Below are positions 26,834 to 47,766 of a stretch of 64,000 nt of DNA, piece after piece. Location of the stretch: NCBI RefSeq assembly GCF_035084215.1, contig NC_090356.1, forward strand, positions 20,708,001 to 20,772,000. Direction: 5' to 3'. The translations under genes were made by a program, and so were the position numbers. The DNA comes from Heptranchias perlo (taxonomy: Eukaryota). Below the pieces are notes generated by a model, which was not told the origin of the DNA, did not search any database, and saw only the letters and a program-made list of their open reading frames with translations. How positions within the stretch are numbered: position 1 is the stretch's first letter; each line of letters starts with the position of its first letter.

Positions 26834-27137
26834 ACACTCTCGAACACATGCCTGATTCAGCATGGAGTGTTGAAATAATTTATAAAAATATACAAACTCT
26901 GCGGCGGTGGAGTGCACTAAAGCCCCAGGGCGGGGGGGTTGGGAGTGGGAGGGGGTGGTTTGGGGGGCGCCCAGACACAATTCCAAACACGTGCATCCAC
27001 ACTGCTCTGCGGAGATGCCAAAGGCCTGACTCTTCCTCGTAGAGAAGGAAAACCGGGAGAGGAAGGGGAAAGAAGGAGACATCGACAAGGTGAGACAGAG
27101 AGTAAAACAGCAGGGGGAGAGAGATGGACAAGGGGCA

Positions 27138-27138
27138 G

Positions 27139-27170
<32 letters not shown>

Positions 27171-27205
27171 CGAAAGAGAGAGACAGAGACAGGGAGACAG
27201 ACAGT
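27138..27205. repeat. (CA)n and (GA/GACA)n microsatellite
   Basis: Direct reading. Confidence 0.9.
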
Positions 27206-27479
27206 CCTGGGCCAGTCTCATGATCCCTCTAGTGGTTAGTTTCAATGGAGCATCAATCAAAACCTGGAAGCAACTTGCTATTCTCAGCCACATTAAACAA
27301 GGTAATGGGAATGGGGCTGGGGGGTGAAAACCAATATCAAAAACACAGGCTCGCTATAACAGTGGGTGGAGGTACTGGTTTATAAGTTAAGTCAGCTGCT
27401 CTCAATCGGAACACATGGAGGACACGGTGTGGGGCAGGGGCTGTGAGTGTTCCTTTTTAAAAGTGTGTGCCTATTTGCA

Positions 27480-28020
27480 CTAGTGAGCAACAGCAGCGAC
27501 ACGATATACCCCCCCCTCCTCCACACACACACACACCCCCCCCGAGCAGAACGTCACACTGCAAGTGACCGCACGCTCTGCGCGTCCCCGGGGAACACCT
27601 GCATTACATTCTCGCCGTTTCGGTAAGCTCCAGGTCTTCGACCGCTTGTCGAAAGAACAAGACAACAAGATGGGACACCTGCCCTGGTGCTGCGGGCCGG
27701 GCCGGGCCGGGCCGGGCTGTGCCTCCCGAAACTGTCAGCGGCACTGCCCGAGAGGCTGGCAACAGTCAGGAAGCTGCTGTCTCACGTGGCACGGGCGAGG
27801 CATGCCATTGGGCAACACTCCACCATGCATTAACCATCTGAGGGACTCTGGAAATGATTATTCCCAACAGCCAAAAGTCTTAAAGGAGCACCACTTCCAA
27901 TCAACACTATCTTTTTTTCACAACGACACGATTCACATCGAGACACGTCACCACGCCGCTTGTGTGTGACATCACTGTGAAAAATACGCTGCGTGCTTAT
28001 TCTCGCCCCGGGTATGAGGA
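27480..28020. promoter_or_regulatory. CpG-enriched upstream region of DHRS3 with (GGGCC)n
   Basis: Visibly high CpG density relative to flanks; not computed. Confidence 0.45.
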
Positions 28021-28507
28021 TGGTGTCTCTTTAATTAAAGGCACAGGCATCCCCTTGCAAAGTGCTGAAAGTACCTTTCTCAATTTAAAAAAAAGAAAAT
28101 TGTCCAAATAATTGTTTTTTAAGCAGGAGATGATTTGTAATCCATCTTGCAATCAAAAAGTACACCATTGGCTGCAAAGCGCTTCGGGACGGTCCTGAGG
28201 CCGTGAAAGGCGCCATATAAATGCAAGTTTTTGTTTTGCAATCTCCTGATTATTATACTTGATGTCAGGCGAGCATCCTTAATGGTTGCTGGGCAGGAGA
28301 AAGCTGTGCAAGATCATCGTGGATGGGGGAACCAGAGCTGGGTGCAAGCGAACAGTTGTGTGTCTGTGAGTTGGAGGGGGAGGGAGAGAGAGTCTGTAGT
28401 TCTGATGCAGAGGCTGGCGTGTTGCCGCTGACTACAGGGGGGGTGTGGGCTGAGGGCTTCACACAGTAGTACCGAGCGGATCAGCTCCCTCCCGACACTT
28501 AAACTCG

Positions 28508-28545
28508 TCAATCAGGATTAATGGACTGCCGTATAAAAACTCACT
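28508..28545 (+). promoter_or_regulatory. Candidate DHRS3 core promoter (TATAAAA at 28532 with upstream CAAT-like motif)
   Basis: gTATAAAAac about 460 nt upstream of the ATG, next to CpG-enriched unique sequence. Confidence 0.5.
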
Positions 28546-28608
28546 GCGCCTTTCGGAACACACACAACACACACACACAAACGGTTCCAGCTCTTTTATT
28601 ATATATTA

Positions 28609-28621
28609 TACACACACACAC

Positions 28622-28656
<35 letters not shown>
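28609..28656. repeat. (CA)n(TA)n microsatellite in the probable DHRS3 5' UTR
   Basis: Direct reading. Confidence 0.9.
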
Positions 28657-28657
<1 letters not shown>

Positions 28658-28990
28658 TTTGCGTGTGTGGCAAATCGGTCTGGAACGATTAACCTCCGTG
28701 TGATCCCGGACAACAGCAAAGAGAAAGAAGAAAAAAATAAAATATTTGAAAGAAAAATATGGTTTTAAAACCAAGAGAAATTGATTGAACAGGAAGGCGC
28801 TCAGCCAGTGAAATTGACACGCACTTAAAGGTTTTTTTTTTGGCTGGGGCAAAAAAAAAGTTTTTTTTTGGCCAAACTTTTTTTTTTGTCTAGGTGAACT
28901 TTTCTGCTGCAGAGGACGGGGTGCAGTTCCTTTTTTTTTTGTGTGTGTGTGGTTTTTGTTGGTTTGTTATTGTTTAGGATGAGCCCGGAG

Positions 28991-29185
28991 ATGGATTGGA
29001 GGAGCCTGGGTTCGCTGCTGCTCTTCCCGATGCAAATGGTCTTTTACGTGGTCAAAGCCGCCGTGTTACTGCTGCTGCCCGTCAGACTGAGGGAGCTGAG
29101 CCGGGACACCGTCCTCATCACCGGGGGAGGCAGAGGCATCGGTCGCCACCTGGCCCGGGAGTTCGCCAAACAAGGGGCTCGAAAG
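28991..29185 (+). CDS. DHRS3: DHRS3 exon 1 coding part ([13 protein letters not shown]...GARK)
   Basis: gagATGg Kozak context; TGGGRGIG; donor AAG|GTGAGT. Confidence 0.95.
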
Positions 29186-32100
29186 GTGAGTCTCTGGATT
29201 TTCAGGTTGCACTGAACAGTTTTTTTTTTTGAAAATGCATTTTGGGGATAAAACAACGAGCAGTGATGGGTTACAGAGGGAGTCAGGCAGCGATCTCACA
29301 GGATTTACATAATGTCTTAATTCTGATCACGGATGGGAGCAGACCCTGAAAGAGCAATCTGCAGAAATCTGTTTGCATTCGCTCCAAAAGGATTGCTTTT
29401 GGCATTTGAATCTTTTAAGGAAAATGCAATGTCCAGATACTCCGTGTAGGGGAAGCAGGATTTAAAAGCCCCCCCCCCCACTGACTGTGCTTAGTGGCTA
29501 TAGAGTGTGTCAAGAAGGGACTAAACTTGCAGATGCTTTTTTGGAGTGTGTCAAAAGAGTGTCCAGATCCTGCTCTGTTGTATGAATGTGGGATTGTTCC
29601 TGTGCTGAGTTTAACCTTCAGTCTCTGTGCACGCTTAGAATTTGCTCACAGGAGTTGCTATTGCTGATAACCTTCTAATGGGCGCATCATTCATGGTTAG
29701 AGACCTCTGTGGATTTTTATATAATTGTTATAAATGTACATGCAACTGTTCGATGTTCCACAGAGAGACCAGTGTCATGTTCCCCCTCGATCTCTCAATA
29801 CCTGTTTAAACTGGTCAGTTCATCCCCCCACGCCTAACCTGCCCCAAGAGACACTTCGTGTTCTGCAGGACGCATTCGACTGGTTCTGTGTAATTCTTTA
29901 AACACTTCCCGGTCTGTATTTCTTCTAGAACAAGCTGCAGTAAATGGCTCCGGGGGCGAATGCAGAGGCGGCTGAGGGCTCCCAGGCTCCAGTCCTTGGT
30001 CTGTGCTGTGGGCTCAGGTGGGACCTCAGTGCGAGAGCTCCCATTTAGTCCTCGGTGCCTCTGGGCTGAAGGAGAGGCGAAACAGGCAGGTTTCGCCACT
30101 GCTGCTAGTTACTCTCTCAGCCCCGTGTGTGTGTGCATGCACCATCAGGTGAGACAGGACTGGGCTTGTTTCTGATGCCTCTCACTTCCCCTGTTGTGTA
30201 CCCCACCGGACCGATAGCTTATCAACACTGGCTGTGCTGGGCTCACACGTGGGGTTTGACCAGCAAGAAGACAACACCTTCAGAAGTTGAATGGGAGGGA
30301 AAAACCCCTGATCCTCTGAATAGATCTGACGCAGTGAGAGTTGTTTGAAACAGAAAGAGGCCATTCAGCCCTCCAGTCTGTTCCGCCATGGCTGATCTGA
30401 ATCTTAACTGCATCTACCCACCTTGGTTCCGTAACCCTTAATATAATCTCTTGCCCAACTAAAATCTATCAATCTCAGTTTCGAAAATTTCAATTGACCC
30501 CCAGCCTCAGCAGCTTTTTGGGGGAGCGAGTTCCAGATTTACACCACCCTTTGTGTGAAGAAGTGCTTCCTGACATCACCCCTGAACAGCCTAGCTCTAA
30601 TTTTAAGGTTATACCCCCCCTTATTCTGGACTATTCCATCAGGGGAAATTGTTTCTCTCTCAGGTCTTTGAACACCTGAGCAATGGGCAGATCACAATAT
30701 ACAATTATATAGTACTCTGTGATGTGGTAAATACCTGCTTTTGTAAAATTGTGATTTTAATATTTTGAAAACTGATAATCCCGAACGCAAGAAAGCGGAG
30801 ATTGCAACAGAAGCATTGTACATGGTACCTGTTAGATAAAACATCTCTGTCACAATCAGGAGTCATTACAAAGCCATTGTTCGACAAAATGTACAAGACA
30901 ATCAGAACCTGTACCCCGGGGACCCGTACCCCAGCCCTGTACCCTGGTCCGGGGGACCTGCACCCGGCCCCGTACCCAGCCCTGTACCCTGGTCCTGGGG
31001 ACCTGCACCCCGGCCCCGTACCCCAGCCCTGTACCCTGGTCCTGGGGACCTGTACGCCAGCCCCATACCACATGCCCCGTACCCTGGTCCTGGGGACCTG
31101 TACCCCAGCCCCATACCCCAGCCCTGTACCCTGGTCCTGGGGACCTGTACCCTGGCCCCATACCACATGCCCCGTACCCTGGTCCTGGGGACCCGTACCC
31201 CGGCCCCGTACCACATGCCCCGTACCCGTACCCCAGCCCCGTGCTCCGTACCCCGGCCCGAGTCTTCAGAGGAGTGAAAAGTGGAGCTTGCTCTGATAAT
31301 TAGCTCCCCACAATCTAACACGACTGATGTCACCCACAAATCATTGTCTTGATTTCAATATTGAAATTAATTTGAGGGTATGCCTCATAGAGTAAGGGAT
31401 ATCCAGGAGTGAGTCATAGGCTGGCATCTAAACAAGGAGACTATTTACATCCATTAAATGAACCTTGAGATTTAAATTAATCCTTTGTTTTCATTCAGGT
31501 AGTGAATTACTTTTATAAACCATGTATGACCTGGAGGTACGTGAGGGTTGACATGACCAGAACCTGGCAGTTTTAACAGTAGTCTACATGCTTGTTCTCC
31601 ATCTGGTGTTCATTATGGAACTGGTGTACATTCTGACTCCGTGCCCTGGAACTGTACCCACTGGTTTGATGCCAGTGTGAGCTGGCAGGGCTGAGCTATA
31701 CTCAGCTGCACACACCAGTCTTTAACAAGGGGACAGTGGCGCAGTGTTGCTGGGGTGTGCATGTAGAGTATGTGTGTAGAGTGGAGTATGCTGCATGCAT
31801 TGCATGTACATGTGTGTGTGTATATGCATGTGTGTGCATGTATGTGCTCAGCTGCCTCAAACTACTGGCAAGAACAGCTGACAGGATCCCAACATCAGAA
31901 ACATGAGCACTGTTTAAAGGGAACTTTTCAAAGTTGGTTTTGCCCCAATTGCAGTTGTGAAGCCAGCAACTACCGCCTCACCCGGCTGCCTCCTCCAGGT
32001 GGTGCTACCCCGGCACAAAATGCCAACATGATACCAGTTGTACTAAAGTGTGCCGGGGCACGAGTCCCTGTGAACAGGCTCCTCCCTGGTAACGTGGCCA

Positions 32101-35100
32101 CGGCCGGATGCCTCTGATGCCCCCCCCCAATGCGGAACTACCTATTAACATTCACTCTTTAGCCCGTAAAGACGGGACACGCGGACCGAGCGTGTTTGTC
32201 ATCAGAGGTGGTGGGCGCCCTCCCGGGCGGAGGGGAGAAAACTAGAGGAAATTTTTTTTAAAAGTTAATGGTGATTTTTACTGTTATTGGCCCAGGTTCC
32301 CCATTGGGCTGAATAAAAGCAAACTTCTTTACATTGGGCAGCATTCTGAGGAAGTTGTCCAGTTTCAGAATAATCAGTAGAACTGCACAAAACGTCCTCA
32401 GCTTTGTTTACAGGGAGCGTCCAGCAAATCTAGAACTTCAATCTGGTTCTGGAATTCTCCGACTGTTTTCATAGAACCAGATCTCCCACTGGTTACGGCC
32501 TGCACCGATGGGAATCTGTCGATTCGTTTGGATTGAATGAATTGTCCACATGGAGTGACTGAGAGCAGCCAGTTTGCATGTTGGCCAACCTAAAGGGTTT
32601 GTTTTTGTCATCTCCAGACCTTGCTCTCCTCTGCTGATGCTGCATCTGGTGTCTCTACACTGACATCAACTACTTTGTGGTGTCCCTGAGTCAGCTGTGG
32701 CTCAGTGAGTAGCGCTGATGCCTCTGAGTCAGAAGGTTGTGGGTTCAAACCACACTCCAGAGACTTGAGTATAAAATCTAGGTTAACACTCCAGTGCAGT
32801 ACTGAGGGAGTGCTGCACTGTTGGAGGTGCCATCTTTCAGCTGAGATGTTAAACTGAGGCCCATGTCTACCTGCTCAGGTGGATGTAAAAGATCCCATGG
32901 CACTATTTCAAAGAAGAGTAGGAGAGTTCTCCCCAGTTTTCTGATCAATATTTAGCCTTCAACCAACATCACTAATACAGATTATCTAGTCATTATCACA
33001 TTGCTGTTTAGTGGGAGCTTGCTGTGTGCAAATTGGCTGCCGTGTTACCTATATAACAACAGTGACTACACTTCAAAAGAAAGTACTTCATTGGCTGTAA
33101 AGCGCTTTAGGACGCCCTGAGGTTGCGAAAGGAGATATATAAATGCAAGTCTTTCTTTTTTTTCAGTACTGTTATTGAGACGATGCTAGTGCCTCTGTCG
33201 TCATGGAGACCTTTTCCAGAAGGTGTTCTTTCCCCTTCCCTCCCATGTCACCAGAGGTAAAGTCAGTGGCAATGGGAAAAGCAAATGGCTGATGACGACG
33301 CAAGCTGCCATTTTGTTCCTGCTGTAGGTGGGCTGAGATGTCAAACCTGGACTAGCTCAGAATCACACCAGAGTGACCTGCACCCACTGAGCCATCAGGA
33401 AACCCAACCACACCAGCCCTATCCAGAGTTGAGCTGCCAGCATTGGCGAGGACATGCTGGGCTGTGCAGTAACCTCACAGCAATACGGCCTGGCCTTTAC
33501 CGTAACAGAGCCAGATACCGGCATTCAGGACTGGTTTGAGCTTTACTCACGGTAACTAATATGTACTAATATGGTCTGCTAGTCTCATGTAGGGTAAAGT
33601 GAGACAACAGATATCACTGGGTGACTCAGTGGGTAAACGCAATGACCCATGTGGTACTGAGCCATTCAGACCAGGAAAGATCCCAAGTTCCATCATCGAT
33701 TTTGTGCCGACTCAGTTGATCTCGGCTGGGGGCAGTGTTTCGGGTCCCCTAATTTGCCTCAGTGCCTCTGGACAGCAGAGTGGAGGAAAATGAGCCAGGG
33801 TTCCGGTGTGTGATCCAGCGACTCCTGCTGGTAAGTGGGACAGTGTGGAAGTTGGGGCGAGGGCAAGATTGGGCTTGGCTGTCATGCCTTTCACGGTCGA
33901 ATAGCCTGCTGATGGCTAACCACCTAGGCTCACAGATGAAGAATGACCAGCGAAGTATGGTGTGGGGGTGGGGGTCGGTGGGGTGCCAATGCTGGAGTAA
34001 CTTCAGGAGAGAAGGGGAAGGAATCATATAACTTTAAAAAAAATCTCATCACAAAATCCAGAAGCTCTGTTTAATGCAGAACTGCAGTAGCTGGTTACAG
34101 CAGTTATGAGTGAACGACTAGTTCAGTTGTTGAATTAAAGCCACGTGGAGCAGTTTGATTGTGTCGAGGAATTTGGGGCTGGATTGTGAATCTGTGTCAG
34201 GCAATGAGACGCTTTGGATTAAAGTGACGGCTGGAGGAAGATAAATTGTCTGGCAGTGATGTGTTGTTTAAATAATTGGGACTGGTCTCTTGGAAGGTAA
34301 TAGGATGAAAAATCTCAAGCCTTTCTGCAGCATCCAGTGAACACTGGATCACCTCTCCGCAGCTAAATGCTGCATTTTGCGATACATTATTTTTTAATAA
34401 GTGTAAAATTAGTGTTTGCACTGCACTGTTCCTAAAATGAGGTTTGTTCTGTCAAAGCCGAGTCTGATCCTGAACCTCTCCCTATATCCCTGCCCACACA
34501 TTCCCCCCCCCCAAACCAGGGTCACCCCAATAGTGATGAGGAGAGGGAATCCTGGCTGATTTTCCCCCTCCCCTGTAATTCCTCAACTGTTGCCCTGGCT
34601 GCGATCAGCTAACTCAGAGCGGGGTTGGAGTCAGACCTGGGACCCTCTTGGCCTGAGTGTACTTTTTATTCCTTTGGGACGTTCTGCAGCTGTCACTTTC
34701 TCTTCCCCATCCCTTGCCCCAACCATTGGATATAGAGAGGACTGTACTGTAGGTTTAGTGTTTTGGGACTGACAACAACAACAACTACTTGCATTTATAT
34801 AGCGCCTTTAACATAGTAAAACGTCCCAAGGACGGGAGTGTTACCAAACAAAATTTGACACCAAGTCACATAGAGATATTAGGACAGGTGACCAAAAGCT
34901 TGGTTAAAGAGGTGGGTTTTAAGGAGCGTTTTAAGGAGGAGAGGGAAGTAGAGAGGTGGAGAGGTTTAGGCAGCCACCAAAAGTGGGACGATGGAAATCG
35001 GGGATGCGCAAAAGGCCAGAATTGGAGGAGTGGAGAGGTGGACCACACTGGTTGTTTCCATTCCTGTGACCTCTACTGCTTCTGTTCAGATCACAGACAG

Positions 35101-38100
35101 GAGGGGAATAAGGGGCGGATTTGGGAGGGTTAAAAACAGATTCAAAAAAGCAGTCTTTTTCCTAATTTGATTTGGAATTTCCTTGAGATGTTCTTTCTTC
35201 CTCAGCTCTGCCACCTTGCTCCTGCTCTCCCTCACTCCCTCCCTCGCGCCCTCGCTCCCTCCCTCGCGCCCTCGCTCCCTCCCTCGCGCCCTCGCTCCCT
35301 CCCTCGCTCCCTCCCTCGCGCCCTCCCTCCCTCCACTCTCTTTCTTCACTCTCTTTTACTTTTCGCTCTCTGTCTTTGCTCTTTTCTTTCTTTTTGCACT
35401 CTCACTCTTTCGCTCTCTATCTTTTTACTCTGTCTGTGTGTCTCTCTCACTTTCTCTGCCTGCCTCTTTCTCTCTGTTTGTGTGTGTCTCTCTCTCTGTC
35501 TCCCGTTCTCCCCCTCTCTCTCTGTTTTGTTCTATGTTAGAAAGCTCCTGAGTTTCTCTGGACCAGCTGGGGGAGGGACAGGAGCACCTTGCAGTTTAGT
35601 CACAGCCTTGAGTTCAACAGCAGGTCAGCCGAGTGCTGATGATTTCATTAATCTTGTTTACCACTTAGAGGAAATACTCGTTGGGAGGGGGGGGGGGGAG
35701 GAGGGGGGAGAGGGGGAGGGGGGAGGGCTGGCGTGCAGTGGGGGGAGTGGGTTGGAGCCAGGGATCCATTCCACTCCATTCAGACCACTGCGGACGGCCG
35801 CCAACCCCTCCTTTAAAGACACGAACAGGGACCTCGTCGTAGGGTAAGCCAAATCTTTTTGATCAGTTACGAGAGACGTAAGACGTTCTGTAAATAAACT
35901 TAAACCGAAGGAGGGCACCTCGTAACGCTGGGTTATTGAGCCAGAAAACTCAGCGAAGGCTGAGAATATTTTAAGGTGTCACTGTAGAAGCATGTATAGT
36001 CTTTATTTTGCAATTGTATATATTTAAGGGAAGGGCTATATAGTCTTGGTAAATTAATTTTAGAATTCCAGTAAATCTGGATGCTCCCAATGGATTCCCT
36101 TTCCTCCCCGGAAAGCGCTGGCTCTTCCCAGGGGTCCACAGGCCCCAGCCACCCGTTGGTACCTCACCAGTAGAAATTGGAAGGCTATTTGACTGTGTCG
36201 GACCTCACCACTGAACTTGATCCAGTGTAGGCCTAATGTTTGTCCACGGCCAATACCTTATCTTGAAGGGGTGGCTGGATAGCGATCAGGAGTTGGGAGC
36301 TCGGGCTGATTCCCTTTCCTACCCTCAGGCTATTGAGACCGATTGTAAGCATCTTAACAGCTGACGTGACCGAGATCAGCTAATTCATCACAGTCCAGGG
36401 ACGAGCCTCGATTGTGGTCTGTATGGAGCGGTGCCACACTGGGCAGCGGATTTACCAAAACAGCCATTGTAGGGGGAGAGAGTCGGAGCTAAATCTGATC
36501 AGTTATCGGTGTCTCTTTGTAAGGGACCGTCCATCATTTTCTCATTTTCCTTCACAATGATAATGAATTACTCCTTTTCTTAACTTTCCTCCCTTGTTTA
36601 AAAAAAACATAATTATGAAAATGGACCATTTATATGTAATTATGTTTTAAACATTATTCTCAAATACTTGTGTGATATTGTCACCATACTTAAGTTAAGG
36701 CCAGATTAACAATTATTGAGTGCTTTCTAGAATGTATTTGAGTCAAAAGTTCAAAGTGAAAAATCCCTTTGTATATCCCCACTGTGGGGCTCTTTCCACC
36801 CTCTCTCCTTCCCCCCCACCACCCAGTCCATAAACAGTAACACTGGTTTGCCCAGTGCTGGCATTGCATTCCAGTTTGAGGGGACGGGAGGGGGAGATGC
36901 AGAAGGGTGCAGTCTAACACTGCTTTCTGTTGGAGGTGACCTCTGATTGACCCTGGCTCATTGCTAACAGGCTTGGTAGTGGTGACTCCCATCTGAACCC
37001 TTCATCCCCCTCGCACAGATAACCGGCTCAAAGTCCTACACTAGATTACCGCAAATCACACCGAGGCTTTGCCACAAAGCATTGCTCTCGTGTTCTCATT
37101 CATTTTCTCGTGCTCGCTCTTTATCTCTTTCTCTTGTGCTCTCTCGCACGTGTGTACGGTGTTTGTGTTCCCTCACTCGCATTCTCGTGTCCTCTTGCTT
37201 GCTCCGAGTGTCCTCTTTCTCTCTCTCTCTCTCTCCATTTACAATCAAAATGTGAATAGAGCTTGTTTTTTTTGCCAATGTCCCCCCTTTCCACAACTCC
37301 TCAAAAATAAAGCCCATTTTGTTATGTTTTTGAAGCTCTCCCCTCAAAGCCACCCTTAACCCCTTCCTTCGCAGTGGATCTCTGCTGCTTAGTGCTGTAT
37401 AGGGAATGGCTGAAGAAAAATGAGTTCAAAAGCAAATCACCACACTGCAGCCACAGGTGGGCACAGACTGGCATCCGACTGCTCTGTTGTTTGGCATTGT
37501 TGCACCTGTGACGGAGGGGAGAATTTCTACACATGGGTGACGATGTTCATTTAGGGGCATCGGCTCTTTCGTTCTCCAGGTCACCCCACTAATTGCGTTG
37601 TGAGGCCTCCGCCGGTACAATAGGCTACCATTCACTGCTTAGACTCCCACATGAAGAATGGGCACTTGGCAGTACTGCGGGGCTTGCTGGCACTCGTAGA
37701 CTGGTCCCCCAGCACCACGCGGCATTTTTGGGGCACTTTATTCTCCTGCCCTTTTTGTAACTATAACTGATCTCTGAGAGCTTCTCCAACGTGCTCTGAA
37801 AACTCTAAACTCCGCCCGGTGTTTGCCATATCCAATGCTAAAGAAACTTAGTGCCGCAGTGGTTATAAAATGAGATCACTATACCTTCCCTATCTCTGTA
37901 ACCTCCTTCAGCCCTACAACCCTCTGAGATCTCTGCGTTCCTCCAATTCTTGCCTCTCGTGCATCCCCCGCTTCCCTCGTTCCACCATTGGCGGCCGTGC
38001 CTTCAGCTCTGGAATTCCCTCCCTAAACCTCTCCATCTCTCTACCTCTCCCTCCTCCTTTAAGACGCTCCTTAAAACCTATCTCTTTGACCAAGCCTTTG

Positions 38101-41100
38101 GTCACCTGTCCTAATATCTCCTTAGGTGGCTCAGTGTCAATTTTTTTTGTCTGGTAACACTCCTGTGAAGCACCTTGGGGCGTTTTACTAGTTAAAGGCG
38201 CTATATAAATGCAAGTTATTGTTATAAATCAAATGAAGTGACTTGCAAGACCGTCAGTGCCCTATCAAACAGCATAAAAATGATGCTTCACACCTGCTTA
38301 AGGACAATGGAAATCCCTCAGTGAGTAAATGCACTGTCCGCTTTGGTCCTGAGCAATACAAACTAGGAAGGTTCCAGGATCGATCCCCGTCTGTCCCGTG
38401 TTAACTGATCTCAGCTGGGGTGACAGTAGGGTTGCTGAAACTGGTCTTGATATCTGAGCTTCGCAAGGGCAAAATCTACCAGAATGGTACCAGGGATGAG
38501 GGACTGCAGTTTATGTGGAGAAGCAGGGAAGGTTAAGGGGAAATTTGATAGAGGTGTTCAAAATTTTGAGCGGTTTTGATGGAACAGATGGGGAGAAATT
38601 GTTTCCACTGGCAGGAGGGTCGGTAACCAGAGGACACAGATTTAAGATAATTGCCAAAAAGTTCAGGGGGAAATTAGGAGAATTTTTTTTTTTACTCAGC
38701 GAGTTGTTATGATCTGGAAGGCACTGCCTGAAAAGTTGGCAGATTCAGATTCAATAGTAACTTTCAAAAGAGAATTGGAAATACACTTGAAAAGGAAAAA
38801 TTTGCAGGGCTGTGGGGAAAGAGCAGGGCAGTGGGACTAATTGGATAGCTCTTTCAAAGGGCCGGCACAGACATGATGGGCCGAATGGTCTCCTTCTGTG
38901 CTGTATGATTCTATGGTCCCTGGGCCTGATCGGTATCTCATGATTCCTGCTGGAAAGAGCGCTGGTGAGGACTGGTTTGGGCTGCCTGTGATGCCCCTGT
39001 GGTTGAACAGCCAGTCAACGCTCACTGGGCATGCACGTGAAGAATAGTCATTTGGTTGAGATACTGGAGGGTGGTTATCGCCTGCGAAACTGCACTGCAA
39101 CATGAGTCAGGTGAGGAGGGAGAGTTGCAGGGAGTAAGGAGTGAATGGTGAAGGGTATTTTGGTTTTTCTCAGTGCTGTGCTAGGATTATCGTCTTTCGC
39201 TCTGCTTGAAAAGTGGTCCCTGGTTTGGCATCCAGCCAGCATCCCCTGAACCCGACACACTTTCAATTCAGAACTCGCTGACCATAAAATTAGGGAGGGC
39301 AGCTTCTCACTGAAGTGGAAAATCCTGCAGGGACTGCCTGCCTGCCTGCCTGCCTGACTGACTGCTCCTCCGAGCTTCCTGCCCCTTCCTTACCTCTGGG
39401 TGACCCCAGCAGATGACTGCCTGAAAGGCAGGTGAAAAAGTCAAACTGGCGGAAGGCCACAAAAACGTTTCAGCAAAACTGTCAACAGACTGTGCCCGAG
39501 CTGCTGGTCTGTCACCATAGTAACTCGTGTCAGCACTTTAACTCCGAGGGAAGTTTTCAAGCCTATTATCTAGTCGGGAGGAGGATGGGAGGTGCGGTTG
39601 GTTCAGATGACAGGAATGAAACTCCATCATGTCTCTGAAGGCTGTTATAATCCCAAACTTGACCAGCAAGCTCAGAGCCCTTCCCGGGACATTGTATCTT
39701 GCAGTGAACCAGACCTTTCGCAACCTTGGCATCCTATTTGACCCTGAGATGAGCTTCCGACCACATGTCCGCTCCATCACCAAGACCGCCCACTTCCACC
39801 TCCGTAACATTGCTTGTCTCTGCCCCTGCCTCAACCCACCTGCTGCTGAAATCCTCATCCACACCTTTGTTACCTTCAGACTTGACTATTCCAATGCTCT
39901 CCCATCTTCGACATTCCGTAAACTTGAGCTCATCCAAAACTCTTCTGCCCGTATCTTAACTCGTGCCAAGTCCCGTTCACCCATCACCCCTGTTCTCGCT
40001 GACCCACATTGGCTTCCGGTCCGGCAATGCCATCTTAAAATTCTCATCCTTGTTTTCAAATCCCTCTATGGCCTCGCCCCTCCGTATCTCTGTAACCTCC
40101 TCCAGCCCTACAACCCTCCGAGATCTCTGCGCTCCTCCAATTCTGGCCTCTTGAGCATCCCCGATTTTAATCACTCCACCATTGGCAGCTGTGCCTTCAG
40201 CTGCCTAGGCCCTAAACTCTGGAATTCCCTCCCCAAACCTCTCCTCCTCTCTCCTCCTTTAAGACGCTCTTTAAGACCTACCTCTTTGACCAAGCTTTTG
40301 GTCACCTGTCCTAATATCTCCTTAAGTGGCTCGCTATCAAATTTTGTTTGATGACGCTCCTGTGAAGCATCATGGGATGTTATACTACGTTAAAGGCGCT
40401 ATATAAATGCAAGTTGTTGTAAATATTCAAGTTTAATTCTGTGATTGGTTTTCAAAAGACTTTTTTCATCTGTGGCATTGTCTGTTGTGTGAATTTGTTT
40501 AGATGCATTTAAGGGGAAGCTGGATAAAGACAAAGGCAGAGGAGTAAATATGACTCCCTTAAGTGATGCAGTAAGATGATCTCAGTTGTTTATCGAAACA
40601 GCAGTTGAGCAGTGAAGGGGTTAACCGGTTGAGGTCTGTAATTCTGACTCTCTGGCAGCCTATGGTTGTAGAAACCAATGAAAGGGATGTTGTCTCTTTG
40701 AGGAACTTCTCATTTATCTTTGTGTTAACTACACAGCATCACCTCGTCACTGGTCCGTGTGAGGGCTGTGGCTGTTGCATAACACGGCCTACTGCCCCTC
40801 GCATGAACCTTCCAGAACTTCAACCCACAAGATGCTTAGAGACACTGTTCTCTCCCCCCTGCCCTCATCTCGGTGTGTTCCTGTGTACACTACACTGCAG
40901 TTACAAATTACATCCCCTCTCGGGCTGTCAGGATTGCTTCCTTTTCCAATCCTGCATAAAGCCTGTTAAATATCTATCAGTCTGATTCCCATGACGATTT
41001 AAAGGGGCCTTGTCCCTGTTTAGAGGGCGGGCACCTCGTTCTACCAGACTTGTAGACTGATGATGTGATTAAGTCGTCGCTCTTTGACTAAATGGGTAAG

Positions 41101-44100
41101 TGCACTGCCGGGTGTGATACTGAGCCACATTCCCCGGAACGGGCCCTCCGATTTCATCCCTGGTCTGTGCTGAGTTAACTGATTATAGCCGAGGCAGCAG
41201 GTGAGCTGCAGTTGTCCTTTGAGAGCAGGTGGGATGTTCCCACCCCCATCTGGATACCAGCAACCGCTGCTGGAAAGTACACGTGTGTGCATGCTGGGTG
41301 AGGCCTGTGATGCCTCCCAAGGCCGAGCAGCCTCCCACCACTCACTGTCTAGGCTCACAATGAATAGTGCCCATGAGGGTGCGATACCCGGGGGTTTGTA
41401 GTGCCCATTGAACTTTAACCCAGCAGGAATCAGCAGACATTAAACTGTTTAAAGAAGCACATTTTAAAAAAAAATCAGTCTTTTATCTCATTTGATAATT
41501 GTGGGATCTTGCTGTGTGGAGATTGGCTGCCACGTTTGCCTACATAATGAAGGTGGCTGCACTTCAGAAAGTAACTTCTTGGATGATTCCCCGATCCTGC
41601 GCGCCAAGGGGGGAATGGCTGTCACAATCGCCAGGCCACAGCCTGTGGTTTTCCAACACACCCTCCCCTGAAATGCTGGATTGCAGAATCCCCCCACCAC
41701 CACCTCCACCGAGAAGCGCCTTGGAATGTCCTGAGGATGAGAAGGCGCTATGTGAATTCAAGGAGGGAGAGAAATGGAAATAATGGGGGTTCTGACTGAC
41801 CAACTGTCATTCTCTTCTTGCAGATCATTATTTGGGGTCGGACAGAGAAGTGTCTGAAGGAGGCCTGTGAAGAGATTCGGAGCCTGGGCGTAGAGTGTCA
41901 CTACTTTGTCTGCGATGTAGGCAACAAAGAGGAAGTTTACCAACAAGCCAAGGCTGTACGGGAGAAGGTGGGTCTCTACCAGCAACACTCCTGCAATCTA
42001 TGATGTGTTTACAAGCCAGTGACTATTCTTCGGCTGTAGGTAGACCTGGGCAAGTAAAGTCCTGTAAGGTTTTAATGTGAGCTGTTAAACCAAGGCCCAG
42101 TCTGTCTGTTCCGATGGATGTTTAAAGATTCTATGGCATTATTTTAAGAGCAGGGAGTTCTCCTGGTGTCCTGGCCACCATTCAAAGCTCAGAGGGCGTA
42201 AGCAAGCATTACCTCACTGAGAAAATGGTCGGCTTTTGGAATAGCTCATCAAAGGGCAAAGAGCTTGAAACTCTACAAGATCAAATTGGACAAATATCTC
42301 CGTGCAATACAACTGTTAGCACGGCAGGAGAGCAGGATGGATGGCCGTCTGGTTGATGCCCATCTTCAGATTTTCTCTCTGAAAGACTGATCATTCATCT
42401 CAGTGTTGTTTGTGGGATCTTGCTGTGTGCAGAATGGCTGCTACACTTCCCTTTAAAAACACTGCACTTTAAATTAACGGATTTTGAGGTGTGACTAGAT
42501 GCTGTATAAATGGAAATAGTTTTTGATGCTAATCTTTGAAGATTTGATAATCTTTGTCTGGAGTGCGTGTTCAAGCCCCTCGTATTGAATGCTATTTTTA
42601 AACGTGAGGGATGAAACGTTTGTGAGAAATCACTTTGTTTGTGTGCAGGTGGGTGATGTCACCATTCTGGTGAACAATGCTGCAGTGGTTCATGGGAAGA
42701 CTCTGATAGACAGCGATGATGATGCTCTCCTGAAATCCCAGCATATCAACACGCTCGGCCAGTTCTGGGTCAGTACAAGACCTCTTTGCATCTCCTAGAT
42801 AACTCCAGGATTCATCTTTATTGCAAACTTAGTTACCTTCTTGGTCTCCCCTCTCCTGTCTCATTACTCTGCTGTTTTATCACCAAAGCTTCTGGTAGAA
42901 TGAGACTCTACAATCTGTTTGTAAATCCCAATGGCACAATCCAGGATAAGCCACTCCCAGCGTGTGTCACACACCAACACACAAGCATTATAATCGATGC
43001 TTCAGTGCAGTACCGAGGGAGTGCTGCATTGTCAGAGATGAAATGTTAAACCAAGGCCCCCTCTGCCTGTTCAGGTGGATGTTAAAGATCCCATGGCAGT
43101 ATTTGAAGAAAAGCAGGGAGTTTTTTTCCCGGTGTCCTGATCAAGATTCCTCCCTCAACCAACACTGCATCTTCATTGTTGTTTGTGGGATCTTGATGTG
43201 TAAAAATTGTTTTACCCATGTTTACCTCCAAAACAGTCACCACATTTCAAAAAATTCACTGTGTGAAGTATTTTGAGATATTTTGACAATCTGTTAAGAT
43301 GCTATATAAATGCAAGGATCTCGTTTTAAAGTTCACCCCTATATTTCTGAATTCTGCTGCCTGCATTTGGCCTCCTGATTATAAAGGAGATCCTGGTAAA
43401 TTCCAGCAGCCAACCTTGGACTGGGCATCATCTCCTTCCCCCCCCTCACTCCTCACTCAAATCATAGATTTTTTAAAAACGTAATTTTATATTAAAACAA
43501 AATGCTGTCTGTCTTGTGGGAGCATCTGTCTGGACTTAAATCCAGTCCAGCCCAGACAGGTGACGTTCTCTCTCTGATGGAGGATGGGGCTGGTGCAGTC
43601 AGTTAGGATGTGGCTTTTTTCACCTCTGACTTGGTTTGAGCCCAGTACAAGGGGAGTGGGAGGGGGCAGTGCTCCCTCATTCAGATTTATGTTTTGAAAA
43701 TCCACTGGCAACTGCCACACAACTGTTGCCCCAATTCAGAACTGACAGTAACGCAATTAAATTTGATGCAAAAACCACCAAGTTTAATCCAGAAGCCAGA
43801 ATGAAATGATTAAATCTGAAAATCCTCCTTGAGTAATTCTATTTTTCCATCACTCCCACCCAGACAACAAAGGCTTTCTTGCCTCGGATGCTAGAACTGC
43901 AGCACGGGCACATTGTGTGCATGAACTCTGTGCTGGCACTGTCTGCCATCCCGGGTGCCATCGATTACTGCACCTCCAAATCCTCCTCCTTCGCGTTCAT
44001 GGAGAGTCTGACACTGGGCCTCCTCGACTGTCCTGGGGTCAATGCCACCACAGTGCTACCGTTTCACACCAGCACAGAGATGTTTCATGGGATGAAGACA

Positions 44101-47100
44101 AGGTCAGTGCTGAGGATAATGTTTCTGTACCCGGTTACTGTAGAGATTGTTGATCGACATTCTTTTATCAGGAAGGCCGGGTGAAGGATGAAGGCCTGCA
44201 GTGCAGGATCACCGCAGCTGCAGAGTAGGAGAGAGATGTGGTGATTCTTTCACACCAGGCTTTGCTTACCTAATAATGACTGCACTTCAAAAGTAATCCA
44301 CTGATTGTAAAACACATTGGGATCTCCTGCTGCGACGAGCTGCTTTATAAATAGAAGTTCTTCCTTTAAAAGTCTGTAGGTTGTGGGAGGTAAGGAGGAT
44401 TGAAGGAGGCAAGGGATTTTACAGTGTTGAGGCACCTAGAAAAGAATGAGTCGGAGTAGGAGACAGGATATAGAGAAGAGAAAGAGCTCGTACTGCAGTG
44501 TATTTGGAGCTCAGGAGGGAAAAGAGAGGAAAGCTCAGAGGAGCACCTAGTAGTATTTCAATAAAATAGATGTAAACGTGACTGCTATGGGAGAGAAATG
44601 AGGGAAGAACCAATAATACAACAACAAGCTGCGTTTCTACCTGGTCCAGTACTGTGGTGTGTTATGTCGACTGATAAGATTCAGTCTTCAGCGTGAAGCA
44701 CATCAAAACCACTCACAGGAGCATAGGAACAGGAGTAGGCCATTCAGCCCCTTGAGCCTGTTCCGCAATTCAGTTAGATCATGGCTAAACTGTATCTTAA
44801 CTCCATCTACCCACTTTGGTTCTATAACCCTTAACACCCTTGTTAGAAATTGAACAGTTTGGAATGAACTGCTCAGCTTTAACATCCTTTTGGTGTGTTC
44901 CGGTTTCCACAGATGGTTTTTATGAGGCTAATGGTGTGATTGGGTTACAGTGGCAGTAATTGCATCCATTGATCGCTGGAGCAGTGTTGATTTCAAGTAT
45001 TAATCCAGTCAGTATCCGGGAGATCACCACCAGGAGGCCTGAACCTGCCCTCAACCTTTGCTCCTTTTCCACTGAATAGTGCTCAGGCTGGGCCCTCCCT
45101 AACTCGTGGAGGCCGAGTCCAATGGTAGGTCCCCAGGCTGCGAGCAGCTGATTGAACCTGGGAGACTGGGCTCAGGTATTGGTAAGTGGCACACCAGGCA
45201 GTGCACATTACTGGCTCACCCAGTGAGGGAGCTGCAACTGTACAACGTTGGAACGTGACCCAAGGCTAGAAATTAGGGCAGTGAGTGGGCTGGAACTCTA
45301 GTGCTATTAATGCGGGTGGGCAGGGGGGGCAACGGAGGCTGCTGGCAACTTGAAGTGGAACCCTCACCCACCGGTTTTATGCCCTCAAGTTCCAGAGAAA
45401 TTTTGCCTGCCCCCCGTTATGTTCAGAAACCTTGTTGACAGCATGTCTGGTGGCGTTCCTGGGTTTCCATGGGAATCCTGCCCAAAGTGCCCGATAGGCC
45501 CAGCGAGATCTATATCTGTTGAAAGCAGGCATAAGTTCCATTCTGGGCCCCCATCATTGCTGAAAAACAACTAGCTTTACAAAGCTGCTCGTCTGTTTTC
45601 TGAGGGAAATGTACATGCAGTGGCAGGGTGCTGCTCAGAGTGCCATCTCCTCAGTGGAGTGGGTGCCTTTGTTGTGCTCGTACAGATGCCAGCACCTGCC
45701 CTGAATATTTAAGTGACCCCCCACCCTCAGTCGGGTGGGTCAGTGGCAGGTCAAAGCGACGGGTGGGAGGGTGGAAGCACTTCTGTCCTCGCAAAAGGAG
45801 TCCGCAGACTTTCCAGCCTTCGCTCTTTAAGAACCATTTCCTGTGGAATCGTGTTTTGAACCCCAGTGTGGTGCTAGACTGAAGGGACGTGGGTTCATCC
45901 TCGCTCTGCCTACCTCCCAAGATGCTGAGAGCCCAGCTTCGTGCCAGGCACGGAGATCTGATCACTTGGTGTATTGATTTGATTTTTCTGCTGTAGGTTT
46001 CCAAAGCTGTTCCCACCCCTAAAACCGGACACCGTTGCACGCCGGACAGTGGAAGCGGTGCGGACTAACCAGGCCCTCCTACTGCTACCCTGGACCATGC
46101 ACTTACTCGTCATCATGAAAAGGTGAGTTCAGTTCAAAGTCTTGCCTGTATCACTCCCTCCAAACTGCAGCTATTCTGCCTTGAAAGGGGCCCTCATAGA
46201 GGTGTGTATATAATAAGTATTTAAAGAAGGTACTTCAGTACTTGAAGCCAAAACCATGAGGCAAGAGGAGATACAAATTCAAACAGGCAAAAGGCAAATT
46301 TAGGTCTGATCTTCACACTGAGTGATCAATGCAAGGAATGGACGACTGCGTTTTGGAATAATTTAAAGAAAAAGGTGGTGGGGGGGGGGGGGGGGGGGGA
46401 AGGAGAGGGGCTGCAGCTTTCCTCTGGATGGAAGAGTTGGAGGGGGCCTCCCTTATCTAGATTTATCTAGTGATCTTAGAGAAAGAAAGTAAAAGTTGTC
46501 TGGAGTTCAGATGGACTAAAGAGCTGCAGTACCCTTTACATAATTGGATACCACCCACAGCGCAGCTACTATGGGTCTCTCATCACTGACAGCCTGCGAA
46601 GGTCACAAGTGAAATGAGTTTGTGATGACATTTTCTGTCAAGCTTCCAGGGGCCGGCTCCGTACGAAAGTAGGCCAGAGTGACTCAAAGAAAATTCACTG
46701 CATACAAGTAATTGACAAAGCTTTAATTGGAGGGTGATGTAACCAGTTTATGATGTTCACTTCATGCTTAACTCTTTTTAAGAATGGGTCAGTTGGTAAA
46801 TGCATCAAATTTGAAACCTGACCACACAGCCCAGGAAGGCTCAGTCCTGGTGCTTGCTGAGTTAGGTGGGGTGTTGAGGTGGCCTTGGCTGTGGGAGGGA
46901 GGAAATCAGCAAGGGTTACTACTATCTGGTGGACTGCACTGGAAAGTGTGGGCGTGTGCGGTTATTGGGAATAAGGATTGGACCTTGCTCGGCTGTGATA
47001 TCCCTCACAATCTGATATCCAACATTGCCCAGGCTCACTCATGAAGAAAGACTAATTGGGTAAGCTACAGAGAGCAGCCAGCACCTATGGGACTATAGCC

Positions 47101-47766
47101 CAGAAACCCAGTAAAAGTGAGAACTTTTAGACGAGGGGAGAAAACAGGAAAGCAAAATAGTGCTGAGTTAAACCACTGCCACTTGCCTTGGTGGTGGGAG
47201 ATTGTGGGTTTAAGCCCTACTTCAGGACTTGAGCACATAATCTAGACTAACACTCCAGAGTGATACTGAGGGAGTGCTCCATTGTTGTGATAAAGTAAGG
47301 CTCCCTCTATTTACTCAGGTGGCATTACAAATCCCATGGTGCTAACAAGGAACGGGAAGTTCTGGTGTCCTGGACAACATCCCTCCCTCAAATCGACACC
47401 ACCAAAAAACATACTAACTGGTCATTCAGCTCATTCGCTGTTTGTGGGGGCTTGCTTTGTGAAAATAGCCTCTGTATTTGCCTGCACAACAGTGAGTGCA
47501 CATTGATTTAACTCATTGTACGTGAAGCATCTTGGGATAATCCCAAGTGAGGTGAATTTTCGTGGTGTCCAGTTTAATTACAGTTGTTAAAATGCAGCAG
47601 CTGTTTGGGGAAACATAACAATTTAAAAAAAAACAGAACTCTTTTTGAACTTCCTTTTTCTCTCCCCACTCTCGCCTGCAGTATCCTCCCACAAACGGCC
47701 TTGGAAGAGATTTACAGGTTTACCGGAAGCTACGCTTGTATGAACAGCTTCAAAGGGCGAACATAA
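28991..47766 (+). CDS. DHRS3: Short-chain dehydrogenase/reductase 3 (retinaldehyde reductase, retSDR1): join(28991..29185,41824..41967,42649..42768,43864..44102,45997..46122,47682..47766), 909 nt, 302 aa
   Basis: Spliced ORF with TGGGRGIG cofactor motif, NNAAV, YCTSK catalytic motif and C-terminal MNSFKGRT*. Length 302 aa equals my recollection of human DHRS3. An in-frame ATG at 28979 would add MSPE. Confidence 0.97.
30908..31260. repeat. GC-rich compound minisatellite (GTACCCTGGTCCTGGGGACCT / GTACCCCAGCCC units)
   Basis: About 7 imperfect higher-order units in DHRS3 intron 1. Confidence 0.92.
32690..33163 (+). mobile_element. Full-length SacSINE1-like SINE in DHRS3 intron 1
   Basis: Complete head, core and tail. 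Confidence 0.85.
33615..34022 (+). mobile_element. Second, older tRNA-headed SINE-like family (other copies at about 1845-2050, 11830-12790, 15075-15320, 41090-41440, 46785-47150, 49945-50480, 53660-53990)
   Basis: Recurrent blocks agaccaggaaggtccc, ctgtgctgagttagctgatctcagc, gaatagcctgc, tgaagaatggccac; family name not recognised. Confidence 0.65.
34772..35038 (-). mobile_element. L2 LINE 3' end
   Basis: (CAA)n tail, ggacaggtgaccaaaagcttgg. Confidence 0.8.
35225..35525. repeat. (CCCTCGCK)n microsatellite and CT-rich polypyrimidine tract
   Basis: Direct reading. Confidence 0.85.
35611..35627 (+). promoter_or_regulatory. DR5 retinoic acid response element AGTTCA-acagc-AGGTCA
   Basis: Exact RGKTCA-N5-RGKTCA match in non-repetitive DHRS3 intron 1. 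Confidence 0.75.
36937..36953 (-). promoter_or_regulatory. DR5 retinoic acid response element GGGTCA-atcag-AGGTCA
   Basis: Plus strand TGACCTctgatTGACCC in DHRS3 intron 1; a one-mismatch DR5 follows at 36983-36999. Confidence 0.75.
37880..38225 (+). mobile_element. L2 LINE 3' end
   Basis: [19 protein letters not shown]...GGRAFS. Confidence 0.85.
38480..38915 (+). mobile_element. CR1 LINE 3' end
   Basis: [12 protein letters not shown]...[13 protein letters not shown]. Confidence 0.85.
39700..40420 (+). mobile_element. L2 LINE 3' fragment
   Basis: [13 protein letters not shown]...RLDYSNAL...IQNSSAR...HWLPV. Confidence 0.9.
41824..41967 (+). CDS. DHRS3: DHRS3 exon 2 ([11 protein letters not shown]...AVREK)
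   Basis: ttcttgcag|ATC ... AAG|GTGGGT, 144 nt. Confidence 0.96.
42649..42768 (+). CDS. DHRS3: DHRS3 exon 3 ([14 protein letters not shown]...GQFW)
   Basis: gtgcag|GTG ... TGG|GTCAGT, 120 nt. Confidence 0.96.
43000..43320 (+). mobile_element. SacSINE1-like SINE, diverged
   Basis: Core caggtggatgttaaagatcccatggc and tail. Confidence 0.7.
43864..44102 (+). CDS. DHRS3: DHRS3 exon 4 ([10 protein letters not shown]...YCTSK...GMKT)
   Basis: cccag|ACA ... AG|GTCAGT, 239 nt, catalytic YxxxK. Confidence 0.96.
45737..45753 (+). promoter_or_regulatory. DR5 element GGGTCA-gtggc-AGGTCA in DHRS3 intron 4
   Basis: Exact consensus match; may lie within a DNA-transposon-like remnant. Confidence 0.55.
45997..46122 (+). 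CDS. DHRS3: DHRS3 exon 5 ([21 protein letters not shown]...VIMK)
   Basis: ctgtag|G ... AG|GTGAGT, 126 nt; not in the ORF track. Confidence 0.95.
47160..47550 (+). mobile_element. Diverged DeuSINE copy
   Basis: Degenerate head and core. Confidence 0.6.
47682..47766 (+). CDS. DHRS3: DHRS3 exon 6 coding part ([27 protein letters not shown])
   Basis: Polypyrimidine tract + ctgcag|T; TAA at 47764-47766. Confidence 0.96.

What the first reader, a model, noticed from the sequence alone, without database searches (positions are those of the whole stretch)
35611..36999. Cluster of retinoic-acid response elements in DHRS3 intron 1 (candidate RA-feedback enhancer)
Seen: perfect DR5 AGTTCA-acagc-AGGTCA (35611-35627, +), perfect DR5 GGGTCA-atcag-AGGTCA (36937-36953, -), a one-mismatch DR5 GGTTCA-gatgg-GAGTCA 30 bp further on (36983-36999, -) and a one-mismatch DR2 GAGTCA-aa-AGTTCA (36740-36753), all in apparently unique sequence. 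A perfect RGKTCA-N5-RGKTCA occurs about 1e-6 per position per strand at uniform composition, so about 0.04 are expected in the 19-kb gene; I count three including intron 4. Known: DHRS3 reduces retinaldehyde to retinol and is RA-inducible, and RAR/RXR binds DR5. Inference: this is the cis-module of the negative-feedback loop, possibly conserved across jawed vertebrates.
Basis: partly seen in the sequence, partly recalled or inferred. Interest (0 to 1): 0.75.

Follow-up and report, generated by a model that had tools for sequence, protein, structure and literature searches.

The report
Ancient retinoic-acid switches inside DHRS3
Several docking motifs for the vitamin-A (retinoic acid) receptor lie in the first intron of a shark's DHRS3 gene and line up with matching motifs in a bird's copy of the gene, so they are likely ancient switches that would let retinoic acid turn on its own brake, a loop already described in mouse.

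Summary
All four motifs are at the stated coordinates, in single-copy DNA of intron 1 (29186-41823) of a shark DHRS3. The gene holds three perfect DR5s against 0.04-0.07 expected.

A bird DHRS3 locus (L001) keeps the DR5 pair on the same strand at the same 46-bp spacing (40/63 identical; next best placement 31). It probably also keeps the 35611 DR5. These two blocks are the best-conserved stretches of the intron compared. The DR2 and the intron-4 DR5 are not conserved.

Best reading: RAR/RXR enhancer modules of the retinoic-acid feedback loop. Binding and activity were not tested. The mechanism is published for mouse Dhrs3 (RAR-bound intron-1 cRE5, weaker than two upstream elements), so this is one of several modules, not 'the' module. 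My searches found no report of shark-to-bird conservation of these sites. The scan earlier found a different, distal DHRS3 enhancer on other DNA. New member of a known kind.

The parts
35611..35627 (+). Element A: perfect DR5 AGTTCA-acagc-AGGTCA; probable counterpart at L001:1139-1155 (+), one mismatch to consensus in the bird
   Evidence: Same strand; 1326 bp (shark) against 1285 bp (bird) before B1; anchored flank score 21 against null 6.4+/-4.5, reached by 2 of 300; gapped local alignment reached by 10 of 200 shuffles; not among the peaks of the unbiased scan
36123..36493 (.). Low-copy diverged repeat fragments separating element A from element B
   Evidence: Short pieces of other contigs laid at 80% likeness
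36740..36753 (+). One-mismatch DR2 GAGTCA-aa-AGTTCA; shark-only as far as tested, may be chance
   Evidence: No DR2 with at most 2 mismatches in L001:1900-2430; best ungapped placement 20/34, no outlier
36937..36953 (-). Element B1: perfect DR5 GGGTCA-atcag-AGGTCA; bird counterpart L001:2424-2440 (-), GGGTCA-aacgg-AGTGCA
   Evidence: Anchored flank score 29.5, 0 of 300 null placements reach it
36983..36999 (-). Element B2: DR5 GGTTCA-gatgg-GAGTCA, 46 bp start-to-start from B1; bird counterpart L001:2470-2486 (-), AGGTCA-cgcag-GAGTCA, same spacing and same non-consensus half-site
   Evidence: Pair 40/63 ungapped, next best 31; linker 16/29, nominal P 5e-4; flank score 33.5, 0 of 300
39246..39437 (.).
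   Evidence: blastn E 1.8e-4 and 0.008 against L001; best 60-bp window of the intron, 45/60; three-way alignment; three-way 7-mers
39390..39406 (-). Element C: one-mismatch DR5 GGGTCA-cccag-AGGTAA; 17/17 identical to L001:5123-5139 (+); both half-sites identical, spacer 1/5, to L002:1686-1702 (-) in teleost dhrs3b
   Evidence: bird flank score 41, 0 of 300; teleost flank score 14, 16 of 300
45737..45753 (+). Perfect DR5 GGGTCA-gtggc-AGGTCA in intron 4; single copy; no bird counterpart found
   Evidence: No DR5 with at most 2 mismatches in bird intron 4; intron 4 against intron 4 peaks at 32/60
28979..29185 (+). DHRS3 coding exon 1
41824..41967 (+). DHRS3 exon 2
42649..42768 (+). DHRS3 exon 3
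43864..44102 (+). DHRS3 exon 4 (holds the YxxxK motif)
45997..46122 (+). DHRS3 exon 5
47682..47766 (+). DHRS3 coding exon 6 with stop

Best explanation
DR5 motifs in three single-copy modules of shark DHRS3 intron 1 (A at 35611, the pair B at 36937/36983, C at 39390) align with DR5s in a bird's DHRS3 intron 1, clearly for B and C and probably for A, and are likely RAR/RXR-bound enhancer elements that would raise DHRS3 transcription when retinoic acid rises. Shown: motifs, host gene, single copy, excess over chance, shark-bird alignment of B and C, half-site conservation of C in a teleost. Known from other species: DHRS3 reduces retinaldehyde to retinol; mouse Dhrs3 is a direct RAR target with an RAR-bound intron-1 element; RAR peaks lie around zebrafish dhrs3a and dhrs3b. 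Inferred: RXR/RAR occupies these shark DR5s, ligand switches them on, they contact the DHRS3 promoter 6-10 kb away, and the extra enzyme drains retinaldehyde and closes the negative-feedback loop. They are probably some of several modules (upstream, intronic, distal), not the only one.
For: Three perfect DR5s against 0.04-0.07 expected. With at most 1 mismatch, spacer 5 is the commonest of spacers 0-12 in the shark gene (10 against 0-6) and in the bird intron part (5 against 0-2). Four of the bird's five such DR5s in 21.1 kb match shark elements in order and distance (1326/1285 and 2453/2699 bp). The two top peaks among 12,579 60-bp windows of shark intron 1 are C (45/60) and B (40/60); three shuffled controls peak at 35-37. 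Shark-bird half-site columns 42/48 identical against spacers 11/20, and 4 of the 6 changes stay within RGKTCA (counted from the motifs printed). The same non-consensus half-sites are kept: GAGTCA in shark and bird, AGGTAA in shark, bird and teleost. Block C is inverted in the bird, which fits an orientation-independent DNA element. Mouse precedent: PMC11808460. Zebrafish RAR ChIP: PMC8608873, PMC11040003.
Against: No binding, chromatin or reporter data for these sites. The two DR5s that are perfect in shark (A, B1) each carry a consensus-breaking change in the bird. A is weakly supported: 10 of 200 shuffles reach its alignment score and it is absent from the unbiased peaks. The teleost match is weak by alignment alone (12 of 200; 16 of 300). 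Only one bird and one teleost locus were available, both host contigs in metagenome assemblies, and the inversion could be a misassembly. The anchored tests were chosen after seeing the motifs, so half-site identity is partly built in. At least 150,000 DR2/DR5 matches in mouse show no RAR binding (PMC3091300). Mouse cRE5 is the weakest of three enriched regions (PMC11808460).
Confidence: 0.8

Rival explanations
1. The conserved direct repeats are read mainly by another nuclear receptor (COUP-TF/NR2F, or an NR4A/RXR dimer), and RA induction of DHRS3 runs through the upstream and distal elements.
For: RGKTCA half-sites are shared by many receptors (recalled; PMC4446430 passages note COUP-TF and GCNF on direct repeats). 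A lone conserved half-site-like anchor (CTGACCA) sits about 110 bp from C. None of the bird DR5s is a perfect consensus.
Against: The 5-bp spacer is kept in all four shark-bird pairs and in the teleost, and spacer 5 is the enriched one in both species. DR5 is the top RAR ChIP motif in zebrafish (PMC8608873). The shark 3' half-sites are not preceded by the AA of the NR4A-type site (sequence; motif recalled).
Confidence: 0.08
2. The sites are real RAR elements but serve a neighbouring gene (the alpha/beta-hydrolase gene upstream on the minus strand, or a gene beyond the window), not DHRS3.
For: RAR enhancers often sit in introns of bystander genes (skap1/HoxB in PMC8608873). An Abhydrolase_3 gene lies upstream at about 5.5-16.6 kb (extent read).
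Against: The host gene is itself a direct RAR target in mouse and is RA-induced in zebrafish. The elements stay inside DHRS3 intron 1 in shark and bird, and C also in a teleost.
Confidence: 0.04
3. The motifs are chance matches or relics of repeats, and the cross-species matches are noise.
For: The window holds 20 DR5s with at most 1 mismatch. Its 3 perfect DR2s come from a repeat. The DR2 and the intron-4 DR5 are not conserved. No other organism's run held the stretch.
Against: P of 1e-5 to 5e-5 for three perfect DR5s. Sites are single-copy at 80% likeness. B and C exceed all shuffled controls and all 300 null placements. Chance remains likely for the DR2 and possible for the intron-4 DR5.
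Confidence: 0.03
4. The conserved blocks act at RNA level (cryptic exon, splicing element or structured RNA) and the DR5 look is incidental.
For: They are conserved intronic blocks in a long first intron.
Against: No Rfam match in 28000-58000. Block C is on opposite strands in shark and bird, which a sense-strand RNA element would not survive if the inversion is real. Conservation follows half-sites more than spacers.
Confidence: 0.02

Closest known systems
Mouse Dhrs3 intron-1 cRE5 (Varshosaz, O'Connor and Moise, FEBS Lett 2024, PMC11808460)
   Same: Same gene, same intron, DR5-type RARE, proposed role in RA negative feedback; the mouse DR5 is conserved with human, RARa-enriched by ChIP-qPCR and gives agonist-induced eRNA.
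   Different: The paper compares mouse and human only. Its element sequence is in a figure I could not see, so which shark element is its ortholog is open. The cRE5 eRNA primer pair places best on the bird counterpart of element A (29/45), but 6 of 60 shuffles reach that score and the best shark placements are elsewhere. Here three modules are seen, with shark-bird conservation.
Mouse Dhrs3 upstream cRE1 and cRE2 (-1356 and -978 bp; PMC11808460)
   Same: RAR-bound elements of the same feedback gene.
   Different: Upstream, and stronger than cRE5 in mouse. In shark 26500-28979 holds one perfect DR1 and only 2-mismatch DR2/DR5 motifs; orthology not tested.
Distal Dhrs3 DR5 pair, mm10 chr4:145034810-863 (Berenguer et al. 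2020, PMC7259794)
   Same: Two closely spaced DR5s, conserved from mouse to frog, assigned to Dhrs3.
   Different: About 140 kb from the Dhrs3 H3K27me3 peak in the same paper (coordinates); 20-bp gap against 29 bp here; best match in the window only 13/17. A different element.
Conserved zebrafish RAR sites near dhrs3a/dhrs3b and in skap1 intron 4 (PMC8608873, PMC11040003)
   Same: RAR ChIP peaks at the orthologous genes; deeply conserved intronic DR5 enhancers as a class.
   Different: The passages read give no positions or sequences for dhrs3 intronic sites and include no cartilaginous fish.

Membership tests
DR5 retinoic acid response element (RAR/RXR) | Two RGKTCA-type half-sites in direct repeat, 5 bp apart, at most one mismatch | tested here: met
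   A and B1 perfect, B2 and C one mismatch
DR5 retinoic acid response element (RAR/RXR) | Excess over background, specific to RAR-type spacers | tested here: met
   3 against 0.04-0.07 expected; perfect repeats only at spacers 1, 2, 5 among 0-27
DR5 retinoic acid response element (RAR/RXR) | Evolutionary constraint on half-sites and spacer length | tested here: met
   Met for B1, B2 and C against a bird; one bird locus only
DR5 retinoic acid response element (RAR/RXR) | Evolutionary constraint, element A (35611) | tested here: inconclusive
   2 of 300 in the anchored test, 10 of 200 in local alignment, absent from the unbiased peaks
DR5 retinoic acid response element (RAR/RXR) | Evolutionary constraint, intron-4 DR5 (45737) | tested here: not met
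   No DR5 with at most 2 mismatches in bird intron 4; peak 32/60
DR5 retinoic acid response element (RAR/RXR) | Bound by RAR/RXR in vitro or in chromatin | not testable with these tools
   No binding data; no ChIP or ATAC run was returned
DR5 retinoic acid response element (RAR/RXR) | Confers RA-dependent transcription that is lost on half-site mutation | not testable with these tools
   Needs a reporter or deletion
DR2 retinoic acid response element (36740) | Consensus match with conservation or binding | tested here: not met
   One mismatch; no counterpart in L001:1900-2430; one-mismatch DR2s are not enriched in the gene (1)
Ortholog of mouse Dhrs3 cRE5 | Located in intron 1 of a DHRS3 ortholog | tested here: met
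Ortholog of mouse Dhrs3 cRE5 | Sequence homology to the mouse element | tested here: inconclusive
   Only four primers were available; no match above shuffles in shark; a suggestive placement on bird element A
Distal Dhrs3 DR5 pair of PMC7259794 | Sequence match to the two printed DR5s | tested here: not met
   Best 13/17 for each anywhere in the window
Repeat-derived response element | Motif lies within a multi-copy repeat | tested here: not met
   No self-BLAST cover; no other locus laid on A, B or the DR2 at 80%; bins holding C and the intron-4 DR5 at single-copy depth at 95%

The most novel reading that the evidence does not exclude
DHRS3 intron 1 carries a three-module DR5 array inherited from the last common ancestor of jawed vertebrates. 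Its fixed 46-bp tandem pair and its conserved imperfect half-sites (GAGTCA, AGGTAA) are selected low-affinity sites that set the retinoic-acid threshold at which the brake engages. Element C, kept in shark, bird and teleost and surviving an inversion, is an unrecognised core RARE that also exists in human DHRS3, where non-coding variants could cause retinoid embryopathy.
Probability: 0.25. Interest if true: 0.62.

Novelty: new member of a known kind. Interest (0 to 1): 0.42.

Why it matters
DHRS3 is a main brake on retinoic-acid synthesis; its loss is lethal in mouse embryos, and hypomorphic human alleles are reported with craniosynostosis (PMC11808460). A 2022 review said no functional RARE had been demonstrated (PMC8950952). 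The 2024 paper added ChIP-qPCR and eRNA evidence but, in the text read, no mutation or deletion. Conservation between shark and bird picks three short modules out of a 12.6-kb intron as the ones to mutate first, and dates the wiring to before the split of cartilaginous and bony vertebrates. The mechanism itself is expected, so a specialist would find it useful rather than surprising.

Tried and rejected
Whole-genome background: no genome is held for this window, so expectations come from the window itself.

Other sharks: the sequencing-run search returned 4 runs of one sample that may be the source. Conservation among sharks and rays was not tested.

A strict pattern of the B pair (24 fixed letters) found 0 matches in metagenome contigs; the bird pair differs in its half-sites, so the pattern was too strict.

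Of 5 loci, L003-L005 (31-33% identity) were set aside as distant SDRs and not analysed. L001 could not be extended upstream, so the 5' part of the bird intron, and any counterpart of the shark DR5 at 31516, were not compared. L002 holds only 2.1 kb of intron 1, so A and B could not be assessed in the teleost.

Mouse cRE5 primers gave no match above shuffles in shark intron 1. A 10-letter match of one ChIP primer to bird B2 was rejected, because joint placement of that pair is no better than shuffles. A 25/37 match of the intron-4 DR5 region to L001:5077 was judged likely chance, because that bird stretch already aligns with the shark's block C.

Rfam: 0 matches. ESM Atlas gave only the SDR family. 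PMC3190930 was not held. Homozygosity of the region extends well beyond the motifs and was not used as evidence.

Full report
Observation. I call them A, B1, B2, the DR2 and the intron-4 DR5.

Host gene. Six exons (28979-29185, 41824-41967, 42649-42768, 43864-44102, 45997-46122, 47682-47766) with GT-AG introns give 306 aa without an internal stop. Exon 4 finds named DHRS3 proteins, with sharks at 99-100%. The model is 95-96% identical to three shark DHRS3s and 81-84% to five coelacanth, frog, lizard and mammal ones. The window is therefore from a cartilaginous fish, most likely a shark. The motifs lie in the 12,638-bp intron 1. An alpha/beta-hydrolase gene lies upstream on the other strand; I recall AADACL genes as the human neighbours, which no call checked.

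Chance. Among spacers 0-27, perfect repeats occur only at 1 (2 cases), 2 (3 cases, all in a repeat) and 5 (3 cases). With one mismatch allowed, spacer 5 leads spacers 0-12 in the gene, 10 against 0-6. One-mismatch motifs are individually weak: the window holds 20 such DR5s including the perfect ones.

Single copy. Contigs from 4 runs of one sample, possibly the source, span about 35,350-35,470 to 37,912 with no substituted letter. Relaxed to 80% likeness, nothing from other loci was laid on the bins holding A, the DR2, B1 or B2, while short repeat pieces cover about 36123-36493. The sites are not repeat-derived, and A is separated from B by repeat debris.

Conservation. A search of metagenome contigs with a 14-protein DHRS3 alignment gave 5 loci, 2 of them vertebrate host DNA. 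L001 is a bird DHRS3 (best matches avian; exon 4 79/79 to an avian protein) with 9.6 kb of intron 1. L002 is a teleost dhrs3b with 2.1 kb. L001 holds 5 DR5s with at most one mismatch in 21.1 kb, all in intron 1, and 4 of them correspond to shark sites; of the 7 such DR5s in shark intron 1, 4 have a counterpart.

The bird has two minus-strand DR5s 46 bp apart start to start, as in shark. The 63 bp align without gaps at 40 identities; the next best placement in L001 is 31 (mean 15.6, SD 3.4). Outside the half-sites 20 of 39 columns match, and in the linker 16 of 29 (nominal P about 4e-4 and 5e-4). Anchored flank scores were reached by 0 of 300 random placements; a wider gapped alignment was reached by 1 of 200 shuffles.

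It is 17/17 identical to L001:5123-5139, inside a block of about 190 bp that is inverted in the bird (blastn E 1.8e-4 and 0.008; 0 of 200 shuffles). The teleost has the same two half-sites on the same strand as the shark, with a different spacer, and all three share a second anchor about 75-110 bp away. The teleost link is weaker: 12 of 200 and 16 of 300 nulls reach it. The bird-teleost 11-mer at the anchor is one of 19 shared places; by hand, the chance of one falling this close to the DR5 on the right strand is under 1%. Shark and teleost share the orientation, so the inversion is on the bird's side, if it is not a misassembly.

An unbiased scan of all 12,579 60-bp windows of shark intron 1 against the bird intron put C first (45/60) and B second (40/60); three block-shuffled controls peaked at 37, 35 and 36. 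Element A did not reach 35 in that scan. Its support is positional and anchored: same strand, 1326 against 1285 bp from B1, flank score reached by 2 of 300, local alignment reached by 10 of 200. I count it as probable. The DR2 has no bird counterpart with up to 2 mismatches, nor has the intron-4 DR5.

Pattern of change. Across the four shark-bird pairs 42 of 48 half-site columns are identical against 11 of 20 spacer columns, and 4 of the 6 changes stay within RGKTCA (counted). Part of this is built in by selecting motifs. What is not built in is that the imperfect sites keep their exact non-consensus half-site (GAGTCA in shark and bird; AGGTAA in all three). The two sites that are perfect in shark are both imperfect in the bird.

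Mechanism. Most likely RXR/RAR heterodimers sit on these DR5s and, on binding retinoic acid, raise DHRS3 transcription; the enzyme then reduces retinaldehyde to retinol and limits further synthesis. Motifs, location and conservation are shown; binding, ligand response and promoter contact are inferred. The inversion of C and the mixed strands of A and B fit a DNA-level, orientation-independent element, and Rfam has no match in 28000-58000.

What is known. PMC11808460 (parts 1-5 of 6 of the text read; figures and supplements not seen) shows that mouse Dhrs3 is induced 22-fold by an RAR agonist, with only a modest loss under cycloheximide. RARa is enriched at two upstream regions and, less, at intron-1 cRE5, whose DR5 is conserved with human and gives induced eRNA. 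PMC7259794 (passages and section 11) lists a distal DR5 pair conserved to frog; it does not match this window. Passages of PMC8608873 and PMC11040003 report RAR peaks near zebrafish dhrs3a and dhrs3b. Passages of PMC13635163 report distant RAR sites contacting the mouse promoter, and of PMC12774775 RARg peaks at human DHRS3. Passages of PMC8950952 say no functional RARE was demonstrated by 2022, and of PMC3091300 that at least 150,000 DR2/DR5 matches are unbound. Passages of PMC3458940, PMC4446430 and PMC11959543 were also read and add no site positions for DHRS3. Which shark element is orthologous to cRE5 is open: the cRE5 eRNA primers place best on the bird's element A (29/45, 49-bp span), but 6 of 60 shuffles do as well and the best shark placements are elsewhere.

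Novelty. Eight full-text searches listed no paper on DHRS3 intron-1 RAREs in cartilaginous fish or their conservation to birds; most hits were seen only as listings, and subscription journals are not covered. Earlier notes of this scan describe a different, distal DHRS3 enhancer in other genomes; none was found near this place or by sequence. The class of element, the gene and the loop are known. New are the depth of conservation, the modular layout and element C.

Verdict. Observation confirmed; interpretation partly supported; new member of a known kind. Confidence 0.8 that these are RAR/RXR modules regulating DHRS3; interest 0.42.

Noticed in passing
window 55485-56637: A second cluster 8-9 kb downstream of DHRS3: five one-mismatch DR5s (55485, 55596, 55647, 56346, 56375) and a perfect DR1 (56625) in 1.3 kb, against 0-2 for other spacers. 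The site at 55485 has the same two half-sites as the second mouse distal DR5 of PMC7259794. No match in the 7.5 kb of bird downstream sequence held, which may end too early.
   Followed up: partly
window 2822, 12564, 20000: All three perfect DR2s lie in copies of one abundant short repeat, probably at the B-box of a tRNA-derived SINE (recalled), so this repeat seeds DR2 motifs genome-wide.
   Followed up: partly
window 26821-26833 (-): Perfect DR1 in sequence without self-BLAST cover, 2.1 kb upstream of the DHRS3 start codon; a possible counterpart of upstream elements.
   Followed up: no
L001:5092-5246: Block C is inverted in the bird contig while keeping its place between B and exon 2; a real local inversion or an assembly error.
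   Followed up: partly
window 39278-39284, L001:5207-5213, L002:1589-1595: Second three-way conserved anchor (CTGACCA followed by an A-run), about 75-110 bp from element C; the factor that reads it is unknown.
   Followed up: partly
window 45727-45763 and L001:5077-5113: The intron-4 DR5 region matches the bird sequence next to element C at 25/37; probably chance, as that bird stretch also aligns with shark block C.
   Followed up: partly
window about 5530-16630 (-): Multi-exon alpha/beta-hydrolase gene (Abhydrolase_3, E 4.6e-39 for the last exon), head to head with DHRS3; probably an AADACL family member (recalled synteny).
   Followed up: partly
L001, L002: The metagenome collection contains vertebrate host contigs (a 24-kb bird contig and a 3.4-kb teleost contig) that can serve as outgroups for non-coding comparisons.
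   Followed up: yes
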